Shown one piece after another: positions 4,956 through 50,958 of a stretch of 64,000 nt of DNA. Position numbers and translations under genes: made by a program. The notes below the pieces were generated by a model that did not search any database, was not told the origin of the DNA, and worked only from the letters and a program-made list of their open reading frames with translations. How positions within the stretch are numbered: the first letter of the stretch is position 1; every line of letters begins with the position of its first letter. Source of the DNA: Vairimorpha necatrix (Eukaryota); the NCBI GenBank assembly GCA_036630325.1, contig CP142736.1, forward strand, positions 186,001-250,000, in the 5' to 3' direction.

Positions 4956-7087
4956 TGTCATGTATCCGGGGTACATGGCCATCCTTATAGTATTTTTCTA
5001 AATAGTTTTTTATATTAATAGTTTTATTTTGTTTATTATAATCGATGTTCTGATTATTTAATGAATCTTCTTTCATCATATCCGCGTACCCTTCTCAGCC
5101 ATATTTCTTTTATAGTTTATTTTTAATTTAAAGATTGTTGTCACCACTAAACTACAAACATTGGCGTACTTACGAATGTAGTAACGACCATGCAACTTTC
5201 GTTTGTTTGTTTGTTTGTGTGACTCATCTTGACATGTAACTTGAAATGCTTGACATGTCTTTGGACATCAGTGACAGATGACATATTTGACATCTGTTCA
5301 TGTGATGTAGCAATGTACATCACATTCTGCCCTCTCCTAAAGCTTTAAATTTTTTAAAGTTCTCCATTCATTGTTGCAAGTTGCTGACCACCCTTCATGT
5401 TTAGATATTATATTCGGCGGTTCTACTATTGCTTTATCTATAACACTACTTAACATTTTTTGCTTATTCTTCGTGTTTATACTTTCTAATATTTCATTTT
5501 TTTTCTTTCTTATTTTATTTGTCTTCTTTTGTTTATATTTATCACGGTATTTTATTTTTATTAATTTATTACTTCGATTTCTTTTATTATCATCTTTTTT
5601 ATTTTCTTTTTCTATATTTTTCATCGGATTGTTAAGCTTCTTGTCAATATCTGTATTTCTTTTGACAATTAAATCCTTCTCTTTTAATATATTTATTCCA
5701 ACTACATTCTGTAGTTTCTCATGGCTAAGCGTTTTCGCTATTATTTCATCATTTTTCGATGTTTCATGTTTTGTTTTCACTTCTTTTGAATTTTCTTTAT
5801 TAGTTACTTCTTGAATTTTTATTTTAATGTTCTCGACTTTATTTTCTCTATTAAATACTACCTCTTCTGGTATGTTATTTTTCTTTATTTCTCTAATTGT
5901 AAATAATTTTTCTGGAACAATATTCGGCATTTTTATGTTTTCTAAATTTTTCTTAAGCTGCTCTGAGGTATTGTTTAGTCTAAAGCAATCCTCTGTATTG
6001 TGCGTACTGTTTTTATGGAGGCGGCACCATTTATTGTTCTTGTAACCGTCCTTTTCGGTCTCAAACTTGAATCTATCATTATGAACTGATTCATATGTTA
6101 TTTCACGCCTTTTTCCTTCAAAAATCAAACACTCTTCCACTGTTTCTAAATACGTCATGGTTTCTTCGACGTTATTTTTTCCAAGCTCTAATATCTTAAG
6201 ACGAGTGGAAAAACCTAAGCCTAAAAAGAAATTCTCTTTTAATTTTCTTTCGTATTCTTTTCTCGTTAAGTTTTCTAGTCTAGCATACTGATCTACTAGA
6301 TTCTTTATTTCAAACAAATATTCTTTAATGTATCTGAAATTAATTTGTTTACATGCCTGTAGCTTTAAATGTAGCATCTCAGGACTTGATCTTTGACTTA
6401 CATTTTTTTCAATATATCTTCTTATTTTTTCTAAATCTGGTAATCCAAATATTTGTTGCAATGTGGGATCTCGCACTAATTCTCCTAAGGCGATTTTTTC
6501 TTTTTTAAAATCCCATTTTTTATTTCTGCTGATTTGGTTGAAATCCTCAAACCATGTATCTAGCTCCATTTCATTAAATTCTTTTATGTTTTTTATTATA
6601 CTTAAGTTTTTTTTTACTTCTAAATCGATCTCTTCGATCGTATACTTAAATTCTAACGCTTCTTTAATTACTGCGTTGTTGTCCCCTTTTGATACTTTGT
6701 GGGAATTGAATTCAATTATGTCATGTATCCGGGGTACATGGCCATCCTTATAGTATTTTTCTAAATAGTTTTTTATATTAATAGTTTTATTTTGTTTATT
6801 ATAATCGATGTTCTGATTATTTAATGAATCTTCTTTCATCATATCCGCGTACCCTTCTCAGCCATATTTCTTTTATAGTTTATTTTTAATTTAAAGATTG
6901 TTGTCACCACTAAACTACAAACATTGGCGTACTTACGAATGTAGTAACGACCATGCAACTTTCGTTTGTTTGTTTGTTTGTGTGACTCATCTTGACATGT
7001 AACTTGAAATGCTTGACATGTCTTTGGGCATCAGTGACAGATGACATATTTGACATCTGTTCATGTGATGTAGCAATGTACATCACA
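4956..7087 (-). mobile_element. Non-autonomous Ty3/Gypsy-type LTR retrotransposon (Gag-only, 2132 bp)
   Basis: 369-bp TG...CA LTRs at 4956-5324 and 6719-7087 with one mismatch seen. 5-bp TSD GTTTT (4951-4955, 7088-7092). Polypurine tract (PPT) on the minus strand at 5325-5337. No RT, RNase H or integrase core. Confidence 0.95.
5337..6842 (-). CDS. gag: Gag-like protein (501 aa) with CHHC zinc knuckle and Lys-rich tail
   Basis: WCRLHKNSTHNTEDC knuckle. Aligns by eye with the Gag at 34250 (WF....ISRNKKW vs WF...IFQRNKW; YERKLKENFFLGLG vs YERRSKESLYRGLG). Starts inside the 5' LTR and stops at the PPT. Confidence 0.85.
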   Translation of the reverse strand: MMKEDSLNNQNIDYNKQNKTINIKNYLEKYYKDGHVPRIHDIIEFNSHKVSKGDNNAVIKEALEFKYTIEEIDLEVKKNLSIIKNIKEFNEMELDTWFEDFNQISRNKKWDFKKEKIALGELVRDPTLQQIFGLPDLEKIRRYIEKNVSQRSSPEMLHLKLQACKQINFRYIKEYLFEIKNLVDQYARLENLTRKEYERKLKENFFLGLGFSTRLKILELGKNNVEETMTYLETVEECLIFEGKRREITYESVHNDRFKFETEKDGYKNNKWCRLHKNSTHNTEDCFRLNNTSEQLKKNLENIKMPNIVPEKLFTIREIKKNNIPEEVVFNRENKVENIKIKIQEVTNKENSKEVKTKHETSKNDEIIAKTLSHEKLQNVVGINILKEKDLIVKRNTDIDKKLNNPMKNIEKENKKDDNKRNRSNKLIKIKYRDKYKQKKTNKIRKKKNEILESINTKNKQKMLSSVIDKAIVEPPNIISKHEGWSATCNNEWRTLKNLKL

Positions 7088-16784: not shown

Positions 16785-16958
16785 AAAAGCAATATTAATA
16801 AAAATATATTAAATAATTATGAACACTATATAACCGAAGTATTAGAGGCATTGTTTGAATCTGAAATTTTGAATAAGTCACCTATGAGAGAAAGGTGTAA
16901 AAAATATAAAAAAAACATTAGCGCAGTGGCGAGTTAAACGAAATTAATCGAAACTGTA

Positions 16959-18060: not shown

Positions 18061-20129
18061 TGTCAAGGGACAGCTCTCCAGTGGTCCTCAGATGGCCCTG
18101 GAGACTAGAGAATACTATTAAGTAGATATTCTCCTCCTTTGTATTATTCATGTTTTTGGCGGGAAAATGTACCAGATTTTCCCGCCCATAAACATAAAAG
18201 AAAATCATCCTCAGAAGGGTATGAAGATGAGAAAGATAAATAAACAATTTATTAGTAAACCTTCTTCACAGACTGTTGGACAAACAACAGTCCACAATGG
18301 TGGTAACGGTGACGGGATGAGAACAACAGCTTTAATCAGTTGACCTCACTTATGAGAAAGTTATGTCGGGGTAATAAATGGCTTGAATTTAATGGAGAAG
18401 ATCCAAAACAAGCGGAAGAGTTTATTAACCAATTTAGAGAGATCGAAGACGTATATTCTCAAGACAAAACTTTAGACATTGCCAAGTCTCAACTGAAAGG
18501 CAAAGCACTAATCTGGTTTAAAGCATATGAGGGGGAAAAAATCACTGATTACAAGACGTTCATCCAATATTTTAAAAAAAAATATATGAAAGAGAAACTA
18601 GTAGAAGATAAAACCGACACGTTCATGCATCTCTATGTCGAAGGCCCTAAAGAAAACGATATACTTTGTTACGCTTATGCCCTTAAGACATGTGCAAAAA
18701 TAAATGATGAGTATTTCTTGAGATCAAAGATGGCAATCGAAAAGAACTCCCCGGAAACAGTAAAGGAGTCGATTGCCGATACAACGGACTGGATGGATTT
18801 GCTAGAACTCTTAGAAAAAAAACAGAATATTATTAATAAATACCTAAAAAAGAAAAGAAACTGGTCGAGAACTCCACGGAACGAAGCACCCTTGCAGGAT
18901 AGGAAAGAGTTTAAAACTTTCGCAAAGAAGGCAGAAAAAAATAAAACTGCATTATTCCTGAAGGTAGGTAGAGGGGAGAAACCAAAAACTAAAGATAATC
19001 GCCCCAGGATAAAACTCTTTTCTGGAAAAGAAACCATTTCAACGCTCATTGATACGGGAGCCCAGATTAACTTGATAAGTAAAGACAAAGTCCAACTTTT
19101 AGGTCTAGATGCAAAGAAAGGCAGATTAAATATAGACGGAGCTGGAGAAAGTGTTGAATCAAAAGAAATGGTGGAATCTGTGGTTAAGAACCACAGAAAC
19201 AAAAAAAACTTTAGAAAGAAGGCTATTTCTGTAGATAATTTGACAGAAGGCCTCAGTTTTGACACTGGGAATGAAATTGCCTCTAATTTATATAAAAACT
19301 CAGTGAGAACAAATTCTTTTTATATGACTGCTACAAAAGATACTGGGACCTTTATACCAGTTATTGGAGATGGAAAAATACTGGATCTCGAAAATAAAAA
19401 GATGACGAGTAATGAAACTAGATTTGTTTACACGGTAAACAATAGAGGAGACCTAGAAAGGAAATTTGAAAAGCGAAAAGAACTTATAAAGAGATGTACC
19501 GGAATAGAAGAACACAATAGTTCATTCTCAACAGATATTATAGTTCGTAATAATCCGCAATGGAAAGACATAAATCCATTTATAAAAGATGAAAAGAAAG
19601 AAGGGCAGATATGTCTTAACCCTAGCTCAAAAAGACTACCCAACGAGCACCATAAGATTCGAATTAATCGATATCTTCTCAAAAAAGGTGACGAAGTTCT
19701 AAGATACAAACCACCGAGTGTAGTGAAAAATAAACTAGAAAGTACATTCACTTGTACTAATATTACTATAAAAGGTTGCGTAAAAGGACATGAAAGGTAT
19801 AACACAAACAAAGACGTTTTCGCAGTGATTTGGAAGGACCTAAGAAAGATGGTTTCGGAAATGGAAACATGGGAGCCTTTAAAGAAAGGGGGAGTGTCAA
19901 GGGACAGCTCTCCAGTGGTCCTCAGATGGCCCTGGAGACTAGAGAATACTATTAAGTAGATATTTCCTCCTTTGTATTATTCATGTTTTTGGCGGGAAAA
20001 TGTACCAGATTTCCCCGCCCATAAACATAAAAGAAAATCATCCTCAGAAGGGTATGAAGATGAGAAAGATAAATAAACAATTTATTAGTAAACCTTCTTC
20101 ACAGGCTGTTGGACAAACAACAGTCCACA
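18061..20129 (+). mobile_element. Non-autonomous LTR retrotransposon (Gag-protease, 2069 bp)
   Basis: LTRs at 18061-18296 and 19895-20129 (TG...CA, about 3 differences), TSD TTTAT. PBS-like TGGTAACGGTGACGGGAT at 18301-18318 and PPT AAAGAAAGGGGGAG at 19881-19894. No RT or integrase core. Confidence 0.95.
18340..19959 (+). CDS. Gag-aspartic protease fusion with a degenerate integrase-like C-terminal tail
   Basis: Retrotransposon Gag signature LKGKALIWF, protease LIDTGAQINLI, and tail LKKGDEVLRY...NKLESTF. The true start is uncertain (possibly ATG 18221 in the LTR, one base out of frame). Confidence 0.8.
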   Translation: MTSLMRKLCRGNKWLEFNGEDPKQAEEFINQFREIEDVYSQDKTLDIAKSQLKGKALIWFKAYEGEKITDYKTFIQYFKKKYMKEKLVEDKTDTFMHLYVEGPKENDILCYAYALKTCAKINDEYFLRSKMAIEKNSPETVKESIADTTDWMDLLELLEKKQNIINKYLKKKRNWSRTPRNEAPLQDRKEFKTFAKKAEKNKTALFLKVGRGEKPKTKDNRPRIKLFSGKETISTLIDTGAQINLISKDKVQLLGLDAKKGRLNIDGAGESVESKEMVESVVKNHRNKKNFRKKAISVDNLTEGLSFDTGNEIASNLYKNSVRTNSFYMTATKDTGTFIPVIGDGKILDLENKKMTSNETRFVYTVNNRGDLERKFEKRKELIKRCTGIEEHNSSFSTDIIVRNNPQWKDINPFIKDEKKEGQICLNPSSKRLPNEHHKIRINRYLLKKGDEVLRYKPPSVVKNKLESTFTCTNITIKGCVKGHERYNTNKDVFAVIWKDLRKMVSEMETWEPLKKGGVSRDSSPVVLRWPWRLENTIK

Positions 20130-27405: not shown

Positions 27406-27742
27406 TGTGATGTACATTATTTATGAGATGGGTAGATGAAATAGACATCATCTGTCACACATGTCCAAAGGGATGTCAACAATCTCAAGTTGGCCGCCAA
27501 GATGTGTCACACAAACAAACGAACAAACAAAAGTTGCATGGACGCTACTACATTCGTAAGTACGCAAATGTTTGTGTTTAGTGTTAACAACAAATAATTA
27601 ATTAAAATAAAATATAAAAGAAAGTCTGTCTTTGAAGGGTATGGAATCTAGGAGAAAGGAATTTGCCATCAAAGAATAATTAATAATAAAAATTATTTAG
27701 AAAAATATTATGAAAATGAGCATATCCCACGGATACATGACA
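27406..27742 (+). mobile_element. Solo LTR (337 bp), diverged relative of the 4956-7087 LTR
   Basis: TGTGATGTACATT...GGATACATGACA ends match that LTR. 5-bp TSD ATATA (27401-27405, 27743-27747). Confidence 0.92.
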
Positions 27743-27824: not shown

Positions 27825-28613
27825 AGGTGCCCCTAGCCCAGTGGTAGAAGGCAATGCTTCCATTGAGCAGTGTCTGGGTTCGATTCCCAGGGGCACCAAA
27901 ATTGTTTCTACTTTATATGATGCAGTTGGAACAACTCAGAAGATGAAAATGTCCACGATAATCATTAAGTTGATTTAATGAAACTTGTGTGTGTCCAGCC
28001 ACAAGGGGATTAGCATCTAGTGTAGAAACGCACCTCAAAGCCAAAAAGCAGTATCGCCCTTTGGTGACTTAATGATACATAAAAGTATCTAATGGGTACG
28101 GCCTAGTTGGAACCCATGACTGTTGCACTCAAGAGTGTGTTCTAGAGCCAACTAAGAGACTAGACGAAGTAGGGCTCTGGAAGGTCTCGTGGACCCTATG
28201 CTACAAGATTCTGTAACACGGTGGCCGAAACTAGTGCGAGACAGGTGGTCAACGCAGCCCAATAAAAACGCCGGGCTGGGGATGTGGTCGTGTAAAGAGC
28301 TCTGTGTGCAATACAGATTATCGATGGGATTTTTGAGTCAGTACGATGATGTCTATCCTCGGGTTATAGATAACCATGCCCGTTAAGTATATCCGCGGCG
28401 AGGTCACTCTGGATGCGATTTGAGGTATAAATGGAAAATGTCCTCTTGGAGCCAAAGTCCAATGGATACGGCGGAGCTTGCTGCACTAGCATATTGCATG
28501 GAGGGAGTTTTAGTGAGTAAGAATCCTACAGTACCAGTTGGATGAGGATCACACTCAAATTTCTCTGGTCCCTATGTAAGGTTTATACCTATCTCTACTT
28601 GCAAGAAAAAAAA
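27825..28613 (+). mobile_element. tRNA-derived SINE, copy 1 (~790 bp)
   Basis: tRNA-like head with A box TAGCCCAGTGG and B box GGTTCGATTCC, GC-rich body and A tail. Full-length match to 49518-50314. Decayed TSD (GCATATTTATCA / GCAAATTCAACA). Confidence 0.88.
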
Positions 28614-30667
28614 GCAAATTCAACACAGCTAGTTAAAAAGAATATTTTTAAGATTATTTAGGGAGATGCATATTATCGATTTTTTTTGTTTCTCGCCTAT
28701 CTCAACACTTTCTCTCACAACTTATGATTTCATCGGTTTCTAGCTACTTTTTTATGTTTTGAATTTCAAATACATTTGTGCAAATCTTCAATTATTGTTT
28801 ATTTTTAAATTGATGCTTTATACTTCTGATAGCATGTTTGTTTTAAGCCATATATAATCATGTTAGGATTACAAATATTAAAAAAATAAAAAAAAATGAC
28901 CATGTATCAAAAAAATCTCACTTTGTTAACCCCCAAAATGTTCTAAAATACATCATAAGTTTGATTTATATAGTAAAATGCATGCCTCTTTTTTTGTAAA
29001 ACACTTATATTCTTGTATAAAATTATTTTTTAAAACGCCGTATAATAATTTAAAAAATTAGAAATAATGTTTTCAGCTCATAAAAAGTTATAACATGTAT
29101 GGGGTAGTGACGTAGAGATATTATGACATTTTACATGAAAATGTAGCATGTATGTATATTAATGAGGTTCACCAATAATCCTTTAATAACGGCGAACAAT
29201 TATGTTTACGTCTTTTTTGTAATATTAAAAATTAATTTAAGCCCGTTATGTTAATATTAACTATGTAAAAATTGAATTTTCTATATTATGTGTTGTAGAG
29301 TTGGTCTCGAGACAATAATTAGTGGGCTTGTTGGAAGAAGGTGAATTATTAGTTAATCGTTTATTACTCATTGTTCCCTTCATAGGGCATTTTAATTAAT
29401 ACTTTTCCAAAACGTTTCCCTCCGAAATTAAGCATTTTATGAGAGAAATGAAAATGGAACAAAATGTTGAAAGTATAACATGTCAAATGTCATCCAATTA
29501 TTTATCAAATAACATTCGACACAAGATATTTGGTATGTGACATTTGGACTATAAATTTCGTAAATATATAAACCCATGTTTTCTAATAACAATTTTGCAT
29601 ACGACACAAAAGTTGTAGAAATATGTGTAGAACACATATTTGTAACATAATATTCGGAATTCTTAAAGATGTCAAATATCTCATTGTTTTAAACAAATAT
29701 AGATTTCATTATAAATGGGAATTCTGATGGTCAGCATAGGTATTTTTATGACAATATGTAAAAAATATTATTAAATTGATGCAAGCACAAAAATAGCAGC
29801 GAATTTAAATATTATGATTCTTACAAGTACAAGTAACATTACATAACTGTCACAATTAGAGACATTTGAACATCTGTCAAATAGCCTATGAAATCATATG
29901 TTGCCATGTTAAGCGGAAATGTTTAAATTTTTTATAATTGACTTTCAAGAATTCTAAATTTCATATTTTTTTTCAATAAATTTATTTTATTAATAGACTC
30001 AGAATAAAAAATATTTACTTTTATTAAACAGGCGATAAATTAAAAATTCTATGATTTATTTTCATTATGTTTTTTCTTAACATTGCTAATTATGATTTAT
30101 GTACTTAAGAAATTGAAATTCCAGTAAATTTGACAAAAAGCCACATCAACATTATCAATGCCATAATTTTTCTTTAAGCACTATAGACTTTGAAAGTATT
30201 CTAAAGCTTGGTGCAAAAAACACATATTTACAGTCATGAAAGAAACATCAATCAAAAAATACATGTTGGTTTGAAATGGGGCAACTTAGTGCATACCAAA
30301 AAGTGGAAGTGATGTTCAAGTAAATTATCAATATTAAATAAATGAATACCACCGCAAAATATACGAGTAAATAGAAAAAAATTACTTTTTTTTTGTAAAA
30401 AATATTGTAAAAACTTTAATCTTTTTATATTGCTTTATATAATTCTCAATGTCGAATTATAAAATTTCTTTAAACTTACATAACAATCAAAAATTAATCT
30501 TCAAATATTTTTGACATCAATCAAAACATCCAAATTGGTGTCAAATTTGTTTATTGACATGTCAAATTGAAATTTATAATTTGTATGTTTAAAATGTGTT
30601 TTTTTTACAAATCACAAATATGATGATTTTTAATAAAATATATTTAAAAAAATATTTTTTTTCCCAT

Positions 30668-32944
30668 ATGGTTTTTTTAAATTTTTTTACACTATTATCA
30701 TTATCACATGGATGTCAACGCTTCTACGATAAACTCAATAAAGCGATACTTAATAAAATAGAAAATAGAGACTACAACGAAATTAATACCGAAAAAACAT
30801 ACTTGATAGTGAATTTACTTTTTGATGCTAAAAATCATAGGTTAAATGGGGAAATATTGATAGAAAATCCTAATTCGCATATTAGCGAAGAAGATAGACA
30901 TATAAAAGTCGAATGCTATCAGAAATCTATTCAGGATATTGTCGATGAATTCGATGACAAATTAATACTAGAATTAAAAAAAATTAATACAGATTTTATT
31001 GTGTTAAAATATGGTTCGGAATACCATGAGAATTTTTTTTTTGAACAAATAATATGTTTTTTTAATCAAAAACATTTAGTGCGAAAAAATAAGAATATTC
31101 GTCCATGTATTACATATGAAATGATCTTAGAGGATAATTTATTGTGGATTGCAATGTTTGAAATTATGAAAAAACAAGATTTATTTAGAGAATTCATTAG
31201 CCAGAACATGCCAATCATTTATATCAAAAAGAAAAATGTACGTTATATAAATTTTTGTATTACTATAGAAAAGGTCTATTATATATTTGAAATAAATGTA
31301 GATTTGAATGATAAATATGAATTCTACTCTCAAATAAAGGTTAGATCAGAAAAAAGCGATGAAATTGAAGAAATAATTAGCAAATGTATACATAAATTGT
31401 ACAAAAATGTATATATTGATGACCTTAATAGATATTCGTTAAGTTATTTTGATGTTCGTAAAAATACTAAAATAGAATTTATTAGTGATACTATTTTTTT
31501 TGAAATAGAAAACGACACAATTTATTTTGCATACATGAACGATATTTATGTTAATTATCGATTAAACAAGACAAGGGTACAAGGAGACAAAGACAATAGC
31601 ACAGATCCGCGGATTTTACAATTTAAAGATTTTTTTGAAAAGATTTTTTCGATAGAAAACTCTGAGCAAAGATATAAAGGCGTTGAAATGTTTTTTAGAT
31701 TGATAGAGTGTACCGACATAGTAAATTTTTTTCTAAAAAGGATTTTAAGTAATAAAGGCTCTTTATTAAATGCGATATTGGGCCATATTATGTTATTTAT
31801 GAGATTAATCAAAGAAAACCAGCTAGAATATATTATAACAAAGGAAAAAATAAACGAATTACAACTTATCAAAGAATTAGAAAAAATATTATCAAAATCA
31901 AGCTGTAATGCAAACATTATTATAATAAAAATTTGTATATTTATGGAAGCTGAAAAATACATTAATGAACACGATTTTGAAAAATTCCCACAATTTAAAA
32001 TATTAAATAGAATTAACAATCTTATCGATATAAAGGAAAATGCTCAGATATTGACTGAAAATAACCAAAATTTATTGTCAATGAGAAAAACAAAGTTTGA
32101 TTTATTCAAAATATATGAAGAAGTAGTAAGAAATCATTTATTAGATTATGAAAATTTCAAAAAAAATTTATGGAAAAGGATTTTTTGCTTGGTATCATTA
32201 TTTACAGGATTGGAAAAGAATGAATGTAAAATCAATGATGATAAATTCTATATTTATAAAGATGAAATTTTATGCACATTGATCCATAATGTCAGTAAAG
32301 TAGAGAGAAATAATAAAATTATAAGAAAAAAATTATTTGAAAATGCTCGAAAAAGAAAAACAATGGAAGAAATAAATAAAATACTTCAAAAGCTCTTTGA
32401 AAAATATCTAGCCAAAAAGCTGAATAATTTAAAAGACGATGCTTTGAATAAAAAAAATTTGGATTTATATGACGAGGAGATAAATAAAAATTTTGGAAAT
32501 GAACTTATTCAAAGGGGAACGTTTTATTTTGAAAAATCACTTCATTATGAAAGTATAAAAATAGAGATGAATGAACAGTTCAATGCTTATTGGAACAAAG
32601 AATACGAGTTTGAGAACAATATAATTTTCTATAATGAGATAATACATAATAATTATTGGATTGAGGAATATAAATTTATTGAAAAAGAAAAGTTTTGTCA
32701 TGAAATAAAACTTAATATAAGTAAAAACTTAATGAATAACAGCCAGATATATTTAGAAAAGGCCTTAAGAGATATATTTTATAATGAAATAAATGGTTCT
32801 GCTATAAAAGAAAAGTGTGAAAATAATTTAAATAATATTCTAGCAGTTATGAGTCAAACAGATATAATCGAAGCTATAAATGTTATGCTTGGAATGAAAT
32901 TCCACAATTTGATGGCAGAAACGTTAAAAAATTACTCTTATTAA
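30668..32944 (+). CDS. ~760-aa family copy 4 (758 aa)
   Basis: Start revised from 30596 to ATG 30668, which follows CCCAT and aligns with the paralogue N-termini. Intact ORF. Confidence 0.9.
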   Translation: MVFLNFFTLLSLSHGCQRFYDKLNKAILNKIENRDYNEINTEKTYLIVNLLFDAKNHRLNGEILIENPNSHISEEDRHIKVECYQKSIQDIVDEFDDKLILELKKINTDFIVLKYGSEYHENFFFEQIICFFNQKHLVRKNKNIRPCITYEMILEDNLLWIAMFEIMKKQDLFREFISQNMPIIYIKKKNVRYINFCITIEKVYYIFEINVDLNDKYEFYSQIKVRSEKSDEIEEIISKCIHKLYKNVYIDDLNRYSLSYFDVRKNTKIEFISDTIFFEIENDTIYFAYMNDIYVNYRLNKTRVQGDKDNSTDPRILQFKDFFEKIFSIENSEQRYKGVEMFFRLIECTDIVNFFLKRILSNKGSLLNAILGHIMLFMRLIKENQLEYIITKEKINELQLIKELEKILSKSSCNANIIIIKICIFMEAEKYINEHDFEKFPQFKILNRINNLIDIKENAQILTENNQNLLSMRKTKFDLFKIYEEVVRNHLLDYENFKKNLWKRIFCLVSLFTGLEKNECKINDDKFYIYKDEILCTLIHNVSKVERNNKIIRKKLFENARKRKTMEEINKILQKLFEKYLAKKLNNLKDDALNKKNLDLYDEEINKNFGNELIQRGTFYFEKSLHYESIKIEMNEQFNAYWNKEYEFENNIIFYNEIIHNNYWIEEYKFIEKEKFCHEIKLNISKNLMNNSQIYLEKALRDIFYNEINGSAIKEKCENNLNNILAVMSQTDIIEAINVMLGMKFHNLMAETLKNYSY

Positions 32945-34249
32945 ATTTACTTTTATAATTTTTATACACAATACATGTGTGTTATCACAAATTTTTTTAT
33001 TTAGAACACATGAAACTAAAAAAATGCAAAATATAAATCCAAAGATTTTCTAAAATATTATCATTAATCATACCGTTGCTCTAGTTATAGTTGTTTTCCT
33101 AATTTACTCTGCTGAAATTTCTATCTCATACTTAGACATTTTGTGACATAAATGAATAACAATTATAAAGAAAATTCAAATTCAAACAGACTTGTAGCAT
33201 ATAAAATTAATCTTTTTAATTTTTGATTCGATAAATAAGCATTATTAAGCGTTTTTTAATTTATTATTATAAGAGTCGCAATAGAAGAGAATCACGATAA
33301 AATTTTTATTATGAAAACCGTCAAAAGTTTTGTTCACGTATTATACTTTGGAATTGGGTATTCAAAGTTCAAATTATAGAAGAATTATAAATGCCCTAAT
33401 ATTTTGATTGTTGGGAAGGGGGCCCTAGAAAGATTATTTGAGTATCTATTTTTATCAAACAGGAAAGGTTGAAGTATGTAGTGCAGGAGTAAGCTTTGTG
33501 CAATTGTATATATTCAAATGTACGGGTTCTTTAACTTCGCCTGTCACTAATTCTTTAAATGCTAACCGTGTTTTAATTTTTCGTTTTAAATCTCTATTGG
33601 CTTATGTTATAAAAAAAAATCTTAGTAGTTAATTCTAAATAAATGCTTAAGTTTCGATTGACAGAAATATGATCTTTTGCCTAATAAATAAAACATAAGA
33701 TAAATATCACAGTATTTTATAAAAGCGTAAAATTGAATTCTAGAATCAATCAAATAGTTGTTTTAACTTTTATCAAAATATTATTATTTCTAGTTTACCA
33801 TTGTTTCAAAATTTATGAACATATATATTTCATGTCAATTATATTTTACAATACAATAGGGTCAGATTTTCTAAGAGAACAATCGAAATAAATCATAAAT
33901 ATTGTCTATAAACATTTATTATAACCTGAGGGGTACAAATAATAAGGTATAAATATCACAGAAAAGTACATACATCAATAGAAATTTTGGTTTTATGTTT
34001 TAAGGCATATAGATCTAATAAAGTGATAAAAAGTTGGCTTTATTTTTTCATTAATTTCCCTCTTTTCTTTTAATTTCCTAAAAAATGATCACCTAACCCA
34101 GGAACCGGCAACGAAGCGCCCGTTTTCATTTTTTACATTGAGAAGTGTGGTATCCCACATGTCAAACATATCATTTTTGACATTTCTTGATTTGTTTACC
34201 CTGTAAACAAACAAAAAAAACTATAAAAGAAAATTCCATACTCAGGGGT

Positions 34250-35206
34250 ATGGAAGATAAGAGAAATAAACTATTTACTCAAAACTTATCTTTATTGGAG
34301 TTGTACTTCCGCAGGAGGTACGACATATTGAATTCAATAAGAGAGTACAAATATAATGAACTTCCACCCACGCGAGGAAGAGAAATCGCAGGGCACAACT
34401 CCAAAATTCAAGAAACAAAAGTAGTCACCATAAGAATTAAGACAGGTGAAGTGGATCTAGGAATCACTAAGAATGTAGAACTGATCAACGACATTTTCGA
34501 AATCGATCTACTAGGATGGTTCAAAAAGATCGAAGAAATTTTCCAAAGGAACAAATGGAATGAAGAAACTAAAAGGCTCTTTTTATACGATCTTATAGAA
34601 GATCAGATTATAGATAAAACCAAATTGAAAGATGATTATGAAGAGAACAAAAAATACATCATGTCCAAAGTATTTTCACAGAAAAGGGTCGAGAACTTAA
34701 TAGCAGAACTGAGTAATCTCAAACAGACTGACCACATCTTCTTCGACGACTATGTAAACGAAATCATGAATCGATTAACTATTTACAGTAAAGTATCCAA
34801 CTGTAGCATGAAAGAATACGAACGAAGATCAAAGGAATCTCTATACAGAGGACTAGGGTTAGAAACAGTAAGATATCTCGAGGAACAAAACCTCGAAACA
34901 CTACCTGAAATCATACCAGCTCTAAAAAGAATTGAAGAAAACATAATAACAAGATTTAACATACCGAGAAAGCTAAATAACACCTCAGGTATAAGATTCA
35001 TGAAAAAATGGTGTAAAGTCCACAAAACTTTGGGACATACAACGAGAGACTGCGGGCAAAGCAATGAAACAAATCGATCGAATATGAGCAAAGTAAAACA
35101 CGAAAAATTCAACAACTACAAAAAGACAGTAGTTCCCGATACCCATCAAAATTTAAAGAATACAACAGAAAGACTTCAGAGCCCAGGGAAAATAAAAACT
35201 CTTTAA
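34250..35206 (+). CDS. gag: Gag (start revised to ATG 34250 inside the 5' LTR)
   Basis: GGGGT-ATG context; WCKVHKTLGHTTRDC zinc knuckle. Confidence 0.85.
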   Translation: MEDKRNKLFTQNLSLLELYFRRRYDILNSIREYKYNELPPTRGREIAGHNSKIQETKVVTIRIKTGEVDLGITKNVELINDIFEIDLLGWFKKIEEIFQRNKWNEETKRLFLYDLIEDQIIDKTKLKDDYEENKKYIMSKVFSQKRVENLIAELSNLKQTDHIFFDDYVNEIMNRLTIYSKVSNCSMKEYERRSKESLYRGLGLETVRYLEEQNLETLPEIIPALKRIEENIITRFNIPRKLNNTSGIRFMKKWCKVHKTLGHTTRDCGQSNETNRSNMSKVKHEKFNNYKKTVVPDTHQNLKNTTERLQSPGKIKTL

Positions 35207-38121
35207 ACTACGTTATTTTAGAAAATCCTACCATTGTCGAACAACTCGATATCCCACTCATAATCAACACAAAACATGAGTCAACAGGAACTATAGACTG
35301 CGGAGCAGGATTAAACTTTATTAAAGCAGACCTCGTAGAACAATGGAACATCACCACTAGAGAAAACAAAGAGATCCAGGTAATGTTCGGTAATAAATCT
35401 AGTGAAAAAACTAACACTACAATAGAACTCGACTTAAAATTAAAGGATCAAAACGAGACATGCAAGATTGAATTTTACTTATTAAAAAACCTACCAGTCA
35501 ATATTATACTTGGTAGAGATTTCATATCGAGAAACGATATTATATTAGATTTTACAAGAAAGAAAATAATCTGGAACAACGCAACCGTAAATATGAAAAC
35601 AAATGCAGAAGAAACAGAATTCGAAAAACCTCCAGGAAAAATACTTATCACTAAGGAAGAAGAAAGACTTAGGGAAATTATAGATAATTATAAAAGAGAA
35701 ATCAAAGAAAATTGTCCTATAAACACAGATCACGTTAAATTACAAGTTTCAAACAACGACATAAAATGTAAGAAAATTAATATGCCGTACCATCAAACTT
35801 TAAAGAAGATGCAATAGCCGAAATACAACGACTTATAAGCGCTGACATAATAGAAGAATGTAATGAAAGATACACAAGCCCCGCATTTTTTAAGAAAAAG
35901 AAAAATGGGAAAATGAGATTAATAGTAGACTATAGAGAAATAAATAACTTTGTTGAAGATGAAGTGGAAATAATACCCAAAATGGACGATATTATTTATC
36001 AACTTGGTAAAAGCGAAGTAATAAGCAAATTAGACTTGACAAACGGGTTTAATCAATTACTCTTAGCAAAAGATAGCAGAAAATGGACAGCATTTTCGAT
36101 ATTTGGCAAAACATTCAGGTACAAAAGACTTCCTTTTGGATTAAAAAATGGACCAAAAGCTTTTCAGAAAATCATGAACAAAATACTTTTCGGGATAAAT
36201 AACATTTCAGTATATATAGACGACATAATAATTGCCACAAAGGACTACGAATCACACCTCAATACGCTTAAAGAACTGTTCACAAGATTGAAACATTACA
36301 ATGTAAATGTAAATTTCGCAAAATCAGAGTTTTGCACAAAGGACACCGAAATCCTAGGAACAAGAATTTTTAACGGAAAAATGTACCCTCTCACGAAAGA
36401 CTGTAAACTAACAGAAAACATGAAATGCCACACTAAAAAAGACCTGCAAAAAATAATTGGCATATTTAATTGGTACAGAAAATACATTCCAAACTTAAGT
36501 CTAGAAATTCTAAGCTTAACCGAAAAGCTAAAAGGAAACGAAAAAAAAGTCAAGCTAACAAAAGAAGACAATCTAATAATAAACAAATTAATAAGTACAC
36601 TAAAGAACAATAGCCACCTTAGTACTTCCAGACTACAGTAAAAAATTTACACTACATTGCGACGCCTCTGAACTAGGAATGGGTGCAGTACTATCACAAG
36701 AACACGGAATAATTTTAAATATAAGCATGAAATTTAATAAAACAGAAAGAAATTATACAATAGTGGAAAAAGAATACTTTGCAATAGTATACGCGATGGA
36801 TAAGTGCAGAAACATAGTACTCGGAAATTACGTTGAAATCTATACAGACAACAGGAATTGTCTATTTAAAAGCAAAATAAGCAGAAGAATAGAAAGATGG
36901 GATGCGATGATGATAGAGCACAATTACTGCATAAAACAAATCGCAGGAGAGAATAACTCAGTAGCTGACTATCTATCAAGATGTTTTAAAATAGAAAATG
37001 TCAGACATGAAAATAACCTTACGAATATAATAGAACAATATGTAGAAAAAATATCAGACGATAAATCCGGAAAGGAAAACTGGGAAAGAAATAAAGATGA
37101 CAAAATAATGATCAAAAACACCGAAGCAGAAAATTTTCTAACGAAAATACATGAACTAGCCGGCCACCCAGGAATCGTAGTATTAAACAAGAATCTCTCT
37201 CCTTTCTACAACATAATTGGATTAAAGAACAAAATAATAGCAATAACAAAAAATTGTAGAATGTGTAACTTAAATAAGAAAGAGAAAGTCAAAACTCAGA
37301 AATTACAGATCGAATCTGATAAAATTTACGGAACAATAGCCATGGACATATTTGGACCATTTGAACTTGAAAATTTTGAACATGATACAATCCATTATAA
37401 GGCTTATTACCTTTGCATAACAGACGTTTACTCAAGAATTTCAAGGGTATACCTTCTATATAACATAACGGAAGATACAATAATAAAATGTATAGATAAA
37501 TGGATACAAGAATTTCAACAGCCAGAAAAAATTATCATGGACAATGGCACACAATTTACCGGAGAAAAACTCAGAGAAAAATATGAGAAAAGTAGAGGAA
37601 TTAAACTCGTTAACACTCCAATATACCATCCACAAAGCAACGGAATGGCAGAAAGGCAAAACAGTATAATAGCTGAATGTCTAAGGATAAACAAGCTAAC
37701 TAACATCAACGACATAACAAATAAAATTAACATTAAACTTAACGTAAATTACAAAAGAACTATTGGATGTTCTCCATTCGAATTAGAGAAACAATACAGC
37801 TTTTTTGACCCATTCAGACGACAAAGCAACCTAAAGGAACCAAAATACAAATCAGTTCCAGCCACACTGAACCAGAATAACGATAAAAAATTAAAAATAA
37901 ATGATAAAGTATTTGTAAGAGATTTCAAAGCTGGGAAAATGGATGAACAATATAAAGGACCCTGTACGATCAAAGAGGTTGGGAAGAAAGGAAACTGGGT
38001 TAAAGTAGAAGAAGGAGGCAACTGGATCCACATAAAGGACATTAAAAGAAGAGGGAAGGATGTGGTATCCCACATGTCAAACATATCATTTTTGACATTT
38101 CTTGATTTGTTTACCCTGTAA
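35150..38121 (+). pseudogene. pol: pol: protease, RT, RNase H and integrase, in the -1 frame to gag, with further breaks at ~35775 and ~36615
   Basis: IDCGAG protease; RLIVDYR, KLDLTNGF, RLPFGLKNGP and YIDD (RT); LHCDAS and EKEYFAI (RNase H); H-x4-H...CRMC, AMDIFGP, MDNGTQF and PQSNGMAER (integrase). The 5' boundary is approximate. Confidence 0.9.
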
Positions 38122-38382
38122 ACAAACAAAAAAAACTATAAAAGAAAATTCCATACTTAGGGGTATGGAAGATAAGAGAAATAAACTATTTACTCAAAAC
38201 TTATCTTTATTGGAGTTGTACTTCCGCAGGAGGTACGACAAGAAGAAATTTTAAAAATTTAATATTTTATTTTTTTAAAATAAATTTGGTCAATTACATT
38301 TTTAATGCTAAATATTGGGAGTACATTATAAGAAGTTGATGTACTTTTCGTTAAGCAAAAAGACCTTTCAACAAAAATTTTC

Positions 38383-39404
38383 GGCTAAAGTAAGCATTAG
38401 CTACAAAAAATCGATATAGGGTTTTTTTGTTTTTTTTGCCTTTTTTTTTTAAAAATGGAGGAAAGAATTCGGACAAGAGAAGAATTGGAGATCATGTATA
38501 ATGATCTAATAATAAAGAAACAAAATAAAAAATGTAGCATCTGTAATCAAAAAATGAAGCAAAGAGGGGAGCAAAGAAGTCTCATAAGGTGTCCATGGAG
38601 CTCATGTAAAAACACAATTTCAATTTGGAATGGAATTTTCTTTCAGGAGTCTAGGCTAAATCACATTACAATATTACAAATACTAAATTTATGGATTTTA
38701 GGTTATTCACGTAAGTCCATTTCTCAAGTTTTAGGTTGTACTAAATCTTCTATATCTTTCATTCTAAAAAAGTTGAAACACATAAGTCTTTATGATAAGT
38801 ATTTATCTAGTATAGGGACTATTGGATGCGATAATACTATAGTGGAAATTGATGAGACTAAGATTGGGAAGAATAAATACAATAGGGGGAAGTTAGTAAA
38901 AGGATTTTGGTGTTTTGGAATGGTTGAACGTACCATCCAACGTAGAATCATAGTAGTATATATTAAGAAAAGAAACAAAAGGACACTTACTGAACTTCTT
39001 TTAAAATATGTAAGTAGAAGCAGTATTATATATAGCGATATGTGGAGAGCGTATCATTCTTTAAATACAATATTTAACCAACATCATATGGTTAATCATA
39101 CATTACATTTTAGAGATCCGAATACAGGAGTACATACCAATACCATAGAAGGTGATTGGAGATCTCTAAAACAATCTATACCAAATAGAAATAGATCATC
39201 AAATAGCGCTAAACTTTATTTATTTAGATATATGATCCAAAGAAACTCCACAACTTCAGTGTTTTAAGATTTATTAAAATATTTATTCTAGTTTTTATTT
39301 TTGTTCCTTCCTCATCATTTTCTTTCCTCCATTTTTAAAAAAAAGGGGCAAAAAAAACAAAAAAACCCTATATCGATTTTTTGTAGCTAATGCTTACTTC
39401 AGCC
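38383..39404 (+). mobile_element. Merlin DNA transposon, apparently intact (1022 bp)
   Basis: ~85-bp near-perfect TIRs GGCT(A/G)AAGTAAGCATTAGCTACAAAAAATCGATATAGGG. 8-bp TSD AAATTTTC / AAATTTTT. Confidence 0.95.
38455..39267 (+). CDS. Merlin/IS1595-like DDE transposase (270 aa)
   Basis: N-terminal CSIC...CPWSSC zinc finger; IVEIDETKIGK.KYNRG, IIYSDMWRAY and VNH..HFRDP.TGVHTNTIEG.W. The ATG lies within the left TIR. Confidence 0.92.
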   Translation: MEERIRTREELEIMYNDLIIKKQNKKCSICNQKMKQRGEQRSLIRCPWSSCKNTISIWNGIFFQESRLNHITILQILNLWILGYSRKSISQVLGCTKSSISFILKKLKHISLYDKYLSSIGTIGCDNTIVEIDETKIGKNKYNRGKLVKGFWCFGMVERTIQRRIIVVYIKKRNKRTLTELLLKYVSRSSIIYSDMWRAYHSLNTIFNQHHMVNHTLHFRDPNTGVHTNTIEGDWRSLKQSIPNRNRSSNSAKLYLFRYMIQRNSTTSVF

Positions 39405-49517: not shown

Positions 49518-50314
49518 AGGGTGCCCTTAGCACAGTGGTAGAATGCTATGCTTCCATTGAGCAATGGCTGGGTTCGATTCCCAGGGGCACCAAAATTGTT
49601 TCTACTTTCTATGATGCAGTTGGAACAACTCAGATGATGAAAATGTCCACGATAATCATTAAGTTGATTCAATGAAACTTGTGTGTGTCCAGCCACAAGG
49701 GGATTAGCATCTAGTGTAGAAACGCACCTCAAGGCCAAAAAGCAGTATCGCCTTTTGGTGACTTAATGATACATAAAAGTTTCTAATGGGTACGGCCTAG
49801 TTGGAGCCCATGGCTGGTGCACTCTAGAGTGGGATTCTAGAGCTAACTAAGAGACTAGACGAAGTAGGGCAATAGAAGGTCTCGTGGACCCTATCCTACA
49901 AGATTCTGTAACACGGTGGCCGAAACTAGTGGGAGACTGGTGGTCAACGCAGTCCAATAAAAATGCCGGGCTGGGGATGTGGTCGTGTAAGGAGCCGTGT
50001 GTGCAATACAGATGATTGTAGTGACCTTTGAGTCAGTACGATGATGTCTCTCCTCGGGTTACAGATAACCATGCCCGTTAAGTATATCCGCTGTGAGGTC
50101 ACTCTGGACGCGATTTGAGGTATAAATGGAAAGTGTTCTCCTGGAGCCAAAGTCCAATGGATACGGCGGAGCTTGCTGCACCGGCAAGTTGTATGGAGGG
50201 AGTTTTAGTGAGTAAGAATCTCACAGTACCAGTTGGATGAGGATCACACCCAAATCCCTCTGGTCCCTATGTAAGGTTTCTCCCTACCTCTTACTTGCAA
50301 GAAAAAAAAAAAAA
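49518..50314 (+). mobile_element. tRNA-derived SINE, copy 2 (~797 bp)
   Basis: Perfect 12-bp TSD AATACGACCATC (49506-49517, 50315-50326) and a poly(A) tail. tRNA-Gly-like head (CAGTGGTAGAAT...CTTCCA...GGGTTCGATTCCC) with acceptor stem GGTGCCC/GGGCACC. Confidence 0.92.
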
Positions 50315-50958
50315 AATACGACCATCTAAACAATTAGAACCAATATTGCAAATTCATTATTAAAGACCATTTTAATAAAACCGCTTGTTTTTAAAAATGC
50401 AAATTCGTTTAATTATTCGGCATAAAAACGCATAAATAAAACACGAACAACAAAATATTGAGATTAATTGCCAATAATAGTCAATTTATTTTACTTTCTC
50501 AAAAATATTTATATTCGCCTTAGTTAAATAGGCCATATGAGGGTCATCTGTCAAAAATCAATAAAAAGCTTTACTTTTTTTACTTCACTTGCTTTCGATT
50601 TTAGTCTGCATCTTTTTGTTTCGTCATAAAAAACAAATTTATGCATAGTTTATATTATAATAAAATTAATCCTCCGTTATTGATCAATAATCATTTAGTA
50701 AAATAATCTAAATATATATGTTAACACATTTGTATTGTTTTCTATTAATTTAAAAATCATTATACTATTTACAGCGAATATTATTGTTATAACGTATTAA
50801 TTTATAGAATATTCTAATTTAATATAAATTTGAAATTGACATTTTATTAATATTGTATAAAAAGATATTAATTAACATTTGCATCCAACATTCGGTTGTC
50901 TGTATTAAATGTATTTTTTTATTATACAATTTAATTGTTTAGTCAGTTATTTGACCCT

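What the first reader, a model, noticed from the sequence alone, without database searches (positions are those of the whole stretch)
34326..34339. LTR retrotransposons with a 14-bp palindrome in place of the tRNA primer-binding site
Seen: the Ty3/Gypsy 5' LTR ends ...GACA and is followed immediately by TATTGAATTCAATA, a perfect palindrome. The Gag-only element, whose LTR is otherwise unalignable, ends ...GACA followed by T-AATTGAATTCAATT (6704-6717). Neither has a TGG-type PBS, whereas the third LTR element here does (18301). The shared core ATTGAATTCAAT is translated in different Gag frames (ILNSI vs IEFN), so it is conserved as nucleic acid, not protein. Known: most LTR elements prime on a tRNA, and Tf1-type elements self-prime using their RNA 5' end; I see no complement of this site elsewhere in either LTR. 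Inference: a lineage with tRNA-independent priming (fold-back, or priming by the partner RNA through the self-complementary site), or a dimerisation signal at the PBS position. I cannot tell whether this has been described.
Basis: partly seen in the sequence, partly recalled or inferred. Interest (0 to 1): 0.88.

Follow-up and report, generated by a model that had tools for sequence, protein, structure and literature searches.

The report
Palindrome replaces primer site in retrotransposons
Two LTR retrotransposons in this probably microsporidian genome carry a perfect 14-base palindrome exactly where the tRNA primer site should be, and protein relatives from many microsporidia suggest the symmetry itself is conserved, pointing to tRNA-independent priming.

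Summary
A Ty3/gypsy element (34146-38240, +) and a Gag-only element (7087-4956, -) have LTR ends fixed by 5-bp target duplications. They are followed, after 0 and 1 nt, by the perfect palindromes TATTGAATTCAATA and AATTGAATTCAATT. Neither has a TGG-type site, and the LTRs hold no Tf1-type complement.

Fourteen-base palindromes as such are at chance level here. The exact shared 12-mer, however, occurs only at these two places.

The site lies in a translated Gag leader that is conserved across microsporidia. Of 37 aligned homologues, 31 carry a pentapeptide that can be encoded by a perfect palindrome of at least 12 nt, against a 3.3% background. These give 17 different inferred sequences, with partner positions changing together.

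This argues that self-complementarity is selected, which does not fit one shared host tRNA or one protein-binding sequence. It rests on back-translation; DNA of relatives could not be fetched.

The predicted RNA homodimer (-13 kcal/mol) is far more stable than the hairpin (-0.8). My best reading is a primer site that pairs with the partner genomic RNA.

A similar palindrome at this position is in print for fungal GalEa Copia elements (2017), mechanism unknown. I rate this a new variant of a known kind.

The parts
34326..34339 (+). 14-nt perfect palindrome TATTGAATTCAATA at the PBS position of the Ty3/gypsy element (El.2). Translated as ILNSI in the Gag leader.
34146..34325 (+). El.2 5' LTR (180 nt, TGTGG...GACA). 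TATAAAAG at 34222-34229, ATG at 34250, AATAAA at 34265-34270.
34300..34324 (+). U5 terminal hairpin (11-bp stem, GUUGUACUUCC/GGAGGUACGAC), 1 nt before the palindrome.
   Evidence: 71-nt fold, z -3.99; 0 of 200 shuffles fold as well
34141..34145 (+). Target-site duplication AGAAG, left copy. The right copy is at 38241-38245.
   Evidence: Contigs joining 34140 to 38241 in run X1, with 5 letters fitting either side, read as an empty site; whether other letters lie between the two sides is not known.
34250..35206 (+). El.2 Gag reading frame. It starts inside the LTR and runs through the palindrome. No Pfam family; CX2HX4HX4C knuckle.
35068..38121 (+). El.2 PR (35068-35817), RT (35781-36641) and RNase H plus integrase (36604-38121), in three overlapping frames in this copy.
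38044..38060 (+). Polypurine tract AAAAGAAGAGGGAAGGA abutting the 3' LTR.
38061..38240 (+). El.2 3' LTR.
6704..6717 (-). 14-nt perfect palindrome AATTGAATTCAATT of the Gag-only element (El.1), 1 nt (T, 6718) after the 5' LTR. Translated I-E-F-N, a different frame from El.2.
6719..7087 (-). El.1 5' LTR (369 nt, TGTGATG...ATGACA), with U5 hairpin CAUGUA/UACAUG at 6740-6722. TSD AAAAC at 7092-7088 and 4955-4951.
5337..6842 (-). El.1 Gag ORF (501 aa). It starts in the LTR and is homologous to El.2 Gag and to microsporidian Gag-Pol N-termini.
4956..5324 (-). El.1 3' LTR, preceded by the polypurine tract AGGAGAGGGCAGAA (5338-5325).
18061..20129 (+). Contrast element El.3 (Gag-PR only). LTRs at 18061-18296 and 19895-20129, followed by A+TGGTGGTAACGGTGACGGG (from 18298), a TGG-type site.

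Best explanation
The palindrome is the start site for minus-strand DNA synthesis, the equivalent of a PBS, in a Ty3/gypsy lineage found across microsporidia. What is selected is that the site is complementary to itself, not to a host tRNA.

Proposed mechanism (inferred, not shown):
1. Two copies of the genomic RNA pair through the site and form a 14-bp duplex directly after U5.
2. One strand is cut at the 3' edge of the duplex, by analogy with the RNase H cut of an RNA duplex in Tf1.
3. The new 3'-OH is extended through U5 and R of the partner RNA. The same pairing links the two genomes.

Shown: the site's position and symmetry, the lack of a tRNA-type or Tf1-type site, and that LTR ends, duplications and polypurine tracts are as in a standard element.
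Inferred from back-translation: that the symmetry is conserved across the lineage.
Inferred: pairing between two RNAs, the cut and the priming.
For: 1. Position. The palindrome starts 0 nt (El.2) or 1 nt (El.1) after LTR ends that are fixed by 5-bp duplications. A PBS must lie there, because the primer's 3' end defines the U5 end of the cDNA. A pure dimerisation signal need not.

2. No other primer site.
- There is no TGG after either LTR.
- No Watson-Crick run of 7 or more links the site to either LTR.
- The 12-mer has no second copy with up to 2 mismatches in either element.
- The only tRNA gene in the window (two copies) matches 5 nt at most.

3. The elements look recently mobile. LTR pairs are 99-99.7% identical. 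Contigs of runs X1 and X2 join across the El.2 insertion, which I read as empty sites.

4. Symmetry is kept while sequence changes.
- El.1 and El.2 differ at the outermost pair in a compensating way (A..T against T..A).
- They read the site in different frames.
- Of the 150 listed Gag homologues (254 have E <= 1e-3), 37 align at the site. Of these, 31 can encode a perfect palindrome of 12 nt or more in register, and 16 can encode 14 nt. The background is 3.3% and 2.3% of 21,016 other 5-mers from the same proteins.
- Sliding the register by -6 to +6 residues gives 0-7 of 37.
- Shuffling the fifth residue among sequences never reaches 31 of 31 (0 of 5000 shuffles; mean 15.9). For 14 nt, 3 of 5000 shuffles reach the observed 16.
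- Leu at position 2 always goes with a residue whose codon can start with A at position 5 (25 of 25). Met goes with T-initial residues (5 of 5).
- There are 17 distinct inferred 12-mers. Central hexamers are GAATTC 16, GAGCTC 5, GATATC 5, GCATGC 2, and GACGTC, AAATTT and AAGCTT 1 each.
- An anchor built only from the 18 residues upstream, with no information from the site, finds 12 more homologues at i-E <= 1. Nine are compatible at 12 nt or more and 6 at 14 nt.
- In all 31 compatible cases the two preceding codons allow ...C|A, the LTR-terminal CA. Background rates are 0.74 and 0.48.

5. Codon choice. Given this window's codon usage, LNS would be written TTG AAT TCA with probability 0.026, and IEFN would be written ATT GAA TTC AAT with probability 0.045.

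6. Energetics. The hairpin is -0.8 and -0.4 kcal/mol. The homodimer is -13.4 and -12.6 kcal/mol.

7. All three LTRs end in a hairpin next to the site, as U5 stems flank the PBS in Tf1 and retroviruses. That comparison is recalled; PMC5445492 mentions it in passages I read.
Against: - DNA-level evidence exists for two elements only. Everything about relatives is compatibility of peptides with a palindrome, which leaves third codon positions free. No DNA of a relative could be fetched.
- The core LNS lies in a leader that is conserved as protein. Part of the signal is therefore descent or protein selection.
- The 14-nt signal is only moderately above the shuffles (16 against a mean of 9.0).
- Six of the 37 aligned homologues are not compatible in register (P0123, P0170, P0181, P0183, P0228, P0247).
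- A looser scan, allowing any frame and +/-1 residue, is uninformative: 32% of control windows reach 12 nt.
- The homologues are related to one another, so counts are not independent events.
- El.1 has a 1-nt spacer where El.2 has none.
- There are no data on transcript ends, on cDNA or on the primer.
- A full tRNA or small-RNA set of the host was not available.
- The cut of an RNA duplex is assumed by analogy.
Confidence: 0.45

Rival explanations
1. The palindrome is only a dimer-linkage or packaging signal, like a retroviral dimer initiation site. Priming is done by some unidentified primer that binds at or beside it.
For: The predicted 14-bp homodimer is stable (-13 kcal/mol). Palindromes drive genome dimerisation in retroviruses and Ty1 (recalled; also mentioned in passages of PMC5445492 and in the listing for PMC3592414). 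Conserved symmetry fits this reading as well as the priming reading.
Against: No other primer site is visible next to U5. The site keeps a fixed place right after the LTR-terminal CA, in El.2 and in 31 of 31 compatible relatives by inference, which a dimerisation signal does not need. In the predicted fold the palindrome is not shown in a hairpin loop, as retroviral signals are.
Confidence: 0.2
2. The site folds back within one RNA, or within the plus-strand DNA, as a hairpin. That hairpin self-primes in cis or marks the U5 boundary for the element's RNase H or integrase.
For: A 5-bp stem with a 4-nt loop is predicted in both elements. The fungal GalEa site is proposed to act as a hairpin (PMC5445492, section 10).
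Against: The hairpin is marginal (-0.8 and -0.4 kcal/mol) against -13 for the duplex. There is no second complementary copy 12-41 nt downstream as in GalEa. The best 9-mer match is 8 of 9 at +66 nt in El.2 (reached in 22 of 500 shuffles) and 7 of 9 in El.1 (reached in 282 of 500).
Confidence: 0.12
3. The site is an ordinary PBS for a host RNA that is not a tRNA 3' end, for example a half-tRNA cut in the anticodon arm or another small RNA. The palindromy is incidental.
For: Half-tRNA priming is known for Copia lineages (passages of PMC6317226; FunCo1 in PMC5445492). An anticodon loop AUUGAAU (anticodon UGA) followed by a stem strand UCAAU would contain the 12-mer; this is my own reasoning and is untested. 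The host tRNA set could not be examined.
Against: The outer pair differs between El.1 and El.2 in a compensating way. Relatives are inferred to carry 17 different 12-mers that all stay symmetric, which one host RNA cannot match. The symmetry would have to be a coincidence in each. The tRNA gene in the window matches 5 nt at most.
Confidence: 0.1
4. Nothing acts at the nucleic-acid level. ILNS is a conserved Gag N-terminal protein motif, or the DNA is a binding site for a dimeric protein, and the symmetry follows from that.
For: The leader is conserved as protein with conservative replacements. The wobble freedom of back-translation makes compatibility easier to reach.
Against: El.1 keeps the palindrome in another frame (IEFN). 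A relative at 54% Gag identity has IDIN at the same place, which can be written ATTGATATCAAT (read by eye). Replacements at the site are not conservative (N/S/I/H/T, S/A/L) yet change in step. The codons used in the window are the rare palindromic ones. A protein site would keep its sequence, not only its symmetry.
Confidence: 0.08

Closest known systems
Conserved Hairpin Site of fungal GalEa (Ty1/copia) retrotransposons, Donnart et al. 2017, PMC5445492 (abstract, section 10 and discussion passages read; supplements not seen)
   Same: These LTR elements have no tRNA-type PBS. [quoted passage not shown] The authors propose that it replaces the PBS and leave the mechanism open.
   Different: GalEa is Copia in Pezizomycotina; this is Ty3/gypsy in microsporidia. 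The GalEa palindrome is 10 nt and includes the last A of the LTR; here it is 14 nt and starts after the A. GalEa has a second complementary box 12-41 bp downstream that forms a hairpin; none is found here. Here the site is inside the Gag reading frame.
Tf1/sushi-type self-priming (Tf1, Tf2, Maggy, Skippy, Cft-1; plant Tcn1 and TAR lineages), from passages of PMC6317226, PMC6934838 and PMC5445492 and from recall
   Same: Priming without tRNA by the element's own RNA. A U5 stem-loop lies beside the site. The RNase H cut of an RNA duplex is the model for the step proposed here.
   Different: In Tf1 the site pairs with the first ~11 nt of the same transcript. Here no complement exists in the LTR and the site pairs only with itself. 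No chromodomain is present in the integrase.
Retroviral and Ty1 dimerisation palindromes (HIV-1 SL1 loop, MLV and Ty1 PAL sequences), recalled; mentioned in PMC5445492 discussion passages
   Same: A self-complementary sequence in the 5' leader that can join two genomic RNAs.
   Different: Those lie in hairpin loops, downstream of a normal tRNA PBS and in addition to it. Here there is no other PBS and the palindrome abuts the LTR.
Microsporidia-specific Ty3/gypsy groups (Parisot et al. 2014, PMC4202319; passages read)
   Same: Same hosts and superfamily. That paper describes its elements as having a single polyprotein; no such statement is made here about the Gag relatives, of which only some are long proteins. 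The named Gag relatives come from Nosema, Vairimorpha, Dictyocoela, Edhazardia, Anncaliia, Pseudoloma and Pancytospora.
   Different: That paper's main text contains none of the terms PBS, primer binding, tRNA or palindrom. The priming site of these elements is not treated there.

Membership tests
Ty3/gypsy (Metaviridae) LTR retrotransposon | LTRs TG...CA flanked by a short target-site duplication, with a polypurine tract before the 3' LTR | tested here: met
   El.2: TGTGG...GACA, TSD AGAAG, PPT 38044-38060. El.1: TGTGATG...GACA, TSD AAAAC, PPT 5338-5325.
Ty3/gypsy (Metaviridae) LTR retrotransposon | Domain order Gag-PR-RT-RNase H-IN | tested here: met
   Pfam: aspartyl protease 35068-35817, RVT_1 35781-36641, RT_RNaseH plus Integrase_H2C2 plus rve 36604-38121. 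El.1 has Gag only.
Ty3/gypsy (Metaviridae) LTR retrotransposon | PBS complementary to the 3' end of a tRNA (TGG...) | tested here: not met
   There is no TGG after either LTR. The window's tRNA gene plus CCA shares 5 nt at most. The full tRNA set was not available.
Tf1/sushi-type self-priming elements | Site complementary to the 5' end of the transcript (within the LTR) | tested here: not met
   No Watson-Crick run of 7 or more between the 22 nt after the LTR and the LTR, in El.1 or El.2.
Tf1/sushi-type self-priming elements | Chromodomain at the integrase C-terminus (chromovirus) | tested here: not met
   No PF00385 hit in 36604-38121.
Tf1/sushi-type self-priming elements | RNase H-dependent cut of an RNA duplex makes the primer | not testable with these tools
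   Needs biochemistry.
GalEa-type Conserved Hairpin Site | Conserved palindrome at the 5' LTR end in place of a PBS | tested here: met
   Unlike GalEa, the palindrome starts after the terminal A of the LTR.
GalEa-type Conserved Hairpin Site | Second box, inverse complement of the first, 12-41 bp downstream | tested here: not met
   Best 9-mer match: 8 of 9 at +66 nt (El.2; reached in 22 of 500 shuffles) and 7 of 9 (El.1; reached in 282 of 500).
GalEa-type Conserved Hairpin Site | Ty1/copia element of the GalEa clade | tested here: not met
   IN lies after RT-RNase H. The closest Pol is a Nosema granulosis Ty3/gypsy-type polyprotein at 38% identity.
Retroviral-type dimer initiation site | Palindrome displayed in a hairpin loop, in addition to a PBS | tested here: not met
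   In the predicted folds the palindrome pairs with itself and is not in a loop. No other PBS is present.
Retroviral-type dimer initiation site | Joins two genomic RNAs | not testable with these tools
   Only a predicted homodimer, -13.4 and -12.6 kcal/mol.
Half-tRNA-primed elements (copia, Ty5, FunCo1 type) | Site complementary to an internal stretch of a host tRNA | tested here: inconclusive
   Only two copies of one tRNA gene lie in the window, with a 5-nt match at most. No genome is held.

The most novel reading that the evidence does not exclude
A whole Ty3/gypsy lineage spread across microsporidia starts reverse transcription from its own partner genomic RNA, through a palindromic primer site that also links the two genomes. 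This would be a third way of priming LTR elements, beside tRNA priming and Tf1-type priming from the 5' end. It might also explain the unexplained palindromic site of fungal GalEa Copia elements.
Probability: 0.4. Interest if true: 0.85.

Novelty: new variant of a known kind. Interest (0 to 1): 0.7.

Why it matters
How reverse transcription is primed is a defining step of LTR retroelements, and only two solutions are established: a host tRNA or tRNA half, and the Tf1 fold-back.

A palindrome in place of the PBS has been reported once, in fungal GalEa Copia elements, without a mechanism.

Finding the same design in an unrelated superfamily and phylum has three consequences:
- It makes a self-complementary primer site a recurring solution rather than an oddity.
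- The signs that the symmetry, not the sequence, is maintained give precise, checkable predictions. A specific palindrome is predicted for each named relative.
- It suggests simple in vitro tests.

It also matters for annotation. LTR finders that require a tRNA-type PBS will miss or mislabel these elements in microsporidian genomes.

Tried and rejected
- Whole genome: not held.
- RNA evidence: no RNA holder was listed for the stretch. Read laying gave contigs only, so no transcript ends. Among the 40 differences shown, out of 426, none lies in 34326-34339, which proves nothing. Parts without cover are not interpreted.
- DNA of relatives. I tried the following, all without a usable result:
  - Viral contigs with Pol: 5 pattern matches, none confirmed.
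  - Viral contigs with a degenerate leader-plus-core pattern: 17 loci, with 0 Gag hits by hmmsearch. By eye their flanking sequences fall into a few repeated groups; I ran no annotation on them.
  - Metagenome contigs with a two-sequence Gag alignment: 392 pattern matches, none confirmed.
  - Metagenome contigs and viral contigs with a codon-neutral pattern for the one JGI-sourced homologue P0142: 0 matches each.
  - Genome contigs with P0199, which is labelled as a bacterial MAG protein: 256 pattern matches, none confirmed.
  - Five requests did not complete by the machine.
- Word-index protein searches with El.2 Gag and El.1 Gag found nothing. The profile search did.
- A permissive back-translation scan (any frame, +/-1 residue) was dropped as uninformative. 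Control windows reach 12 nt in 32% of cases and 14 nt in 23%.
- Tf1-type complement in the LTRs: none.
- GalEa-type second box: none.
- Rfam on the window: one tRNA only.
- Literature searches for a description of the PBS of microsporidian LTR elements found none. The 2006 and 2010 Nosema bombycis retrotransposon papers are not in the library and were not seen.
Full report
**What is there**

The window is AT-rich, 24-33% GC in 4-kb steps. It carries serpin genes, an ISXO2-like transposase and LTR retroelements. No whole genome is held for it.

The closest Pol is a Nosema granulosis polyprotein at 38% identity. The closest Gag is from Vairimorpha necatrix at 54%. I infer that the host is a microsporidian, probably near Nosema/Vairimorpha.

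Three LTR elements are present:
- **El.2 (34146-38240, + strand).** It has 180-nt LTRs that are 99% identical, the target duplication AGAAG, and a polypurine tract at 38044-38060. The domain order is Gag-PR-RT-RNase H-IN, in four overlapping frames in this copy.
- **El.1 (7087-4956, minus strand).** It has 369-nt LTRs, the duplication AAAAC, a polypurine tract at 5338-5325, and only a 501-aa Gag.
- **El.3 (18061-20129).** It is a Gag-PR element with 236-nt LTRs.

El.2's 5' LTR ends ...GACA at 34325. TATTGAATTCAATA follows at 34326-34339.

El.1's 5' LTR ends ...GACA at 6719. T follows, then AATTGAATTCAATT at 6717-6704. Both are perfect 14-nt palindromes.

Palindromes of this length are not unusual here: 19 are seen against a mean of 16.2 in simulations. 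The exact 12-mer ATTGAATTCAAT, however, occurs only at these two places in 64 kb. With up to 2 mismatches it has no further copy inside either element.

The two LTRs do not align by blastn. Neither element has a TGG after the LTR. El.3 has A+TGGTGGTAACGG.

The site is read as ILNSI in El.2 and as IEFN in El.1.

**What it is not**

- *Not Tf1-type.* A Tf1-type site needs a complement in the LTR. There is no Watson-Crick run of 7 or more.
- *Not GalEa-type in full.* That site has a second complementary box 12-41 nt downstream, and none is found here.
- *No match to the local tRNA.* The only tRNA gene in the window (two copies) shares 5 nt at most with the site. It shares only the generic ACCACCA with El.3's site.
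- *A host RNA from elsewhere in the genome could not be excluded directly.*

**Context in the RNA**

All three LTRs end in a hairpin just before the terminal CA. In El.2 it is an 11-bp stem at 34300-34324. For the 71-nt fold, z is -3.99 and 0 of 200 shuffles fold as well. In El.1 it is a 6-bp stem, with z of only -1.6.

TATAAAAG, an ATG and AATAAA lie in the expected order in the LTRs of El.1 and El.2. The Gag frame opens inside the LTR and runs through the palindrome.

The palindrome alone makes a marginal hairpin (-0.8 and -0.4 kcal/mol). It makes a stable 14-bp homodimer (-13.4 and -12.6 kcal/mol).

**Relatives**

A profile of the two Gag proteins finds 254 homologues at E <= 1e-3. The best 150 were listed.

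I looked up 30 of them. The named ones come from:
- Nosema granulosis
- Vairimorpha necatrix and V. apis
- Dictyocoela muelleri and D. roeselum
- Pancytospora epiphaga
- Pseudoloma neurophilia
- Edhazardia aedis
- Anncaliia algerae

One is labelled as a bacterial MAG protein. The rest are unnamed ENA, Logan or JGI proteins.

Aligned to the profile, 37 of the 150 reach the site. They show a conserved leader, SLLExY[FL]+xGR[VI]PxxG[HY]D, followed by I-L-N-S or variants of it.

**Is the symmetry conserved?**

I asked, for the pentapeptide aligned to El.2's ILNSI and in the same register, whether any choice of codons gives a perfect palindrome.

- *Main result.* 31 of 37 allow 12 nt or more, and 16 of 37 allow 14 nt. 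Six do not: P0123, P0170, P0181, P0183, P0228 and P0247.
- *Background.* Among 21,016 other pentapeptides of the same proteins, 3.3% allow 12 nt or more and 2.3% allow 14 nt.
- *Shifted register.* Moving by -6 to +6 residues gives 0-7 of 37.
- *Shuffling the fifth residue.* The observed 31 of 31 is never reached in 5000 shuffles (mean 15.9, maximum 23). For 14 nt, the observed 16 is reached in 3 of 5000 (mean 9.0).
- *Coupled changes.* The replacements are not conservative, but they are coupled. Leu at position 2 goes with I, K, M, N, R, S or T at position 5 (25 of 25; all can start with A). Met goes with F, L, W or Y (5 of 5; all start with T). Pairs at positions 3 and 4 are NS, SS, IS, HA, TS, NL and SL.
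- *Diversity.* This gives 17 different inferred 12-mers. Central hexamers are GAATTC, GAGCTC, GATATC, GCATGC, GACGTC, AAATTT and AAGCTT.
- *The preceding CA.* In all 31, the two preceding codons allow ...C|A, the LTR-terminal CA.
- *Independent anchor.* An anchor built only from the 18 upstream residues picks 12 more homologues at i-E <= 1. Nine are compatible at 12 nt or more and 6 at 14 nt. At i-E <= 10 the figures are 11 and 8 of 19. By my reading of the printed rows, the three misses at i-E <= 1 show the motif a few residues off.
- *El.1's own lineage.* The V. necatrix relative has IDIN where El.1 has IEFN. This fits ATTGATATCAAT in El.1's frame (read by eye).
- *Codon choice in the window.* The codons used are the rare ones that make the palindrome. 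The probability is 0.026 for TTG AAT TCA and 0.045 for ATT GAA TTC AAT.

**Limits of that test**

- It shows compatibility, not sequence. Third codon positions are free.
- The homologues are related to each other.
- The core may persist partly because the peptide is selected.
- A looser scan has a high false rate and was dropped.
- I could not obtain DNA of any relative (five requests did not complete).
- At the DNA level there are two elements. They show one compensating difference at the outer pair and a one-base shift of frame.

**Recent activity**

LTR pairs are 99-99.7% identical.

Contigs of run X1 join 34140 to 38241, with five letters fitting either side. A contig of run X2 joins 34145 to 38250. 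I read both as sites without the insertion.

A solo LTR of the El.1 family with its own duplication lies at 27406-27742.

**Mechanism**

The site stands where the primer must bind, since the primer's 3' end sets the U5 end of the cDNA. No other primer site is present. If the inferred variants hold up in DNA, what is kept through evolution is pairing of the site with itself.

A single host RNA, or a protein that reads specific bases, would keep the sequence, not the symmetry.

The duplex between two RNAs is about 12 kcal/mol more stable than the fold-back.

My best reading (0.45) is therefore a self-complementary primer site. Two genomic RNAs pair through it, one is cut at the 3' edge of the duplex, and it primes on the other. 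The cut would resemble the one Tf1's RNase H makes in an RNA duplex (recalled).

The rivals are:
- a dimerisation signal with an unknown primer (0.2)
- a cis hairpin (0.12)
- a host half-tRNA or other small RNA (0.1)
- a purely protein or DNA-protein motif (0.08)

**Comparison with what is known**

Donnart et al. 2017 (PMC5445492; abstract, section 10 and discussion passages read) describe the nearest case. Fungal GalEa Copia elements lack a PBS. They have a conserved 9-bp box that is palindromic together with the last A of the LTR, plus a second box downstream. The mechanism is unknown. Only one other paper in the library uses their term.

Self-priming of the Tf1 type is widespread (passages of PMC6317226) but needs a complement in the LTR.

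I found no paper on the primer site of microsporidian LTR elements. The main text of the main survey of these elements contains none of the terms PBS, primer binding, tRNA or palindrom (PMC4202319). The two Nosema bombycis retrotransposon papers of 2006 and 2010 are not in the library.

**Verdict**

This is a real feature at a functionally telling place, and it is very probably conserved for its symmetry across a microsporidian Ty3/gypsy lineage.

It is a new variant of a design described once before in another superfamily. The mechanism is unproven, but it makes sharp, cheap predictions.

Noticed in passing
window 27406-27742: Solo LTR of the El.1 family (about 80% identical) with its own 5-bp duplication ATATA. 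It ends 84 nt upstream of a tRNA gene at 27826-27898, which could hint at insertion near pol III genes.
   Followed up: partly
window 27826-28439 and 49520-50134: A tRNA-like gene (ARAGORN: Met, CAT) sits at the start of a repeat of more than 600 nt present twice (92-95% identical). Rfam's tRNA model passes its threshold only for the first copy (31.3 bits against 29).
   Followed up: partly
window 541-2838, 13190-16919, 24003-26185, 30596-32944, 43447-45726: Five diverged copies (60-95% identical) of a gene family with ORFs of about 600-780 aa and no Pfam match. The copy at 13190-16919 seems to be interrupted by about 2.3 kb holding integrase fragments (13922-14431).
   Followed up: partly
window 18190-18251 and 34218-34277: The promoter and R part of the El.3 and El.2 LTRs is 80% identical over 66 nt. 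Yet the two elements have different Gag families and different primer sites (TGG-type against palindrome). El.1 shares the CTATAAAAGAAA...GGGTA motif.
   Followed up: partly
window 34146-38240: The window copy of El.2 reads PR, RT and RNase H-IN in three different overlapping frames. At 36619, contigs of two runs lack one base that the window has.
   Followed up: partly
window 38455-39267: An ISXO2/IS1595-like DDE transposase ORF lies about 200 nt after the 3' LTR of El.2.
   Followed up: no
window 50935-52269 (+) and 57619-58932 (-): Two serpin genes (Pfam PF00079, E 5e-35 and 4e-32).
   Followed up: no
window 55946-56115 (-): A diverged LTR remnant of the El.3 family (76% identical), ending ...CCACA. 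The sequence that follows is not a TGG-type site.
   Followed up: no
protein P0199: A Gag homologue with the microsporidian leader is filed in NCBI as a protein of a Lactobacillaceae MAG, on a 1.5-kb contig. It is probably a microsporidian contig binned by mistake.
   Followed up: no
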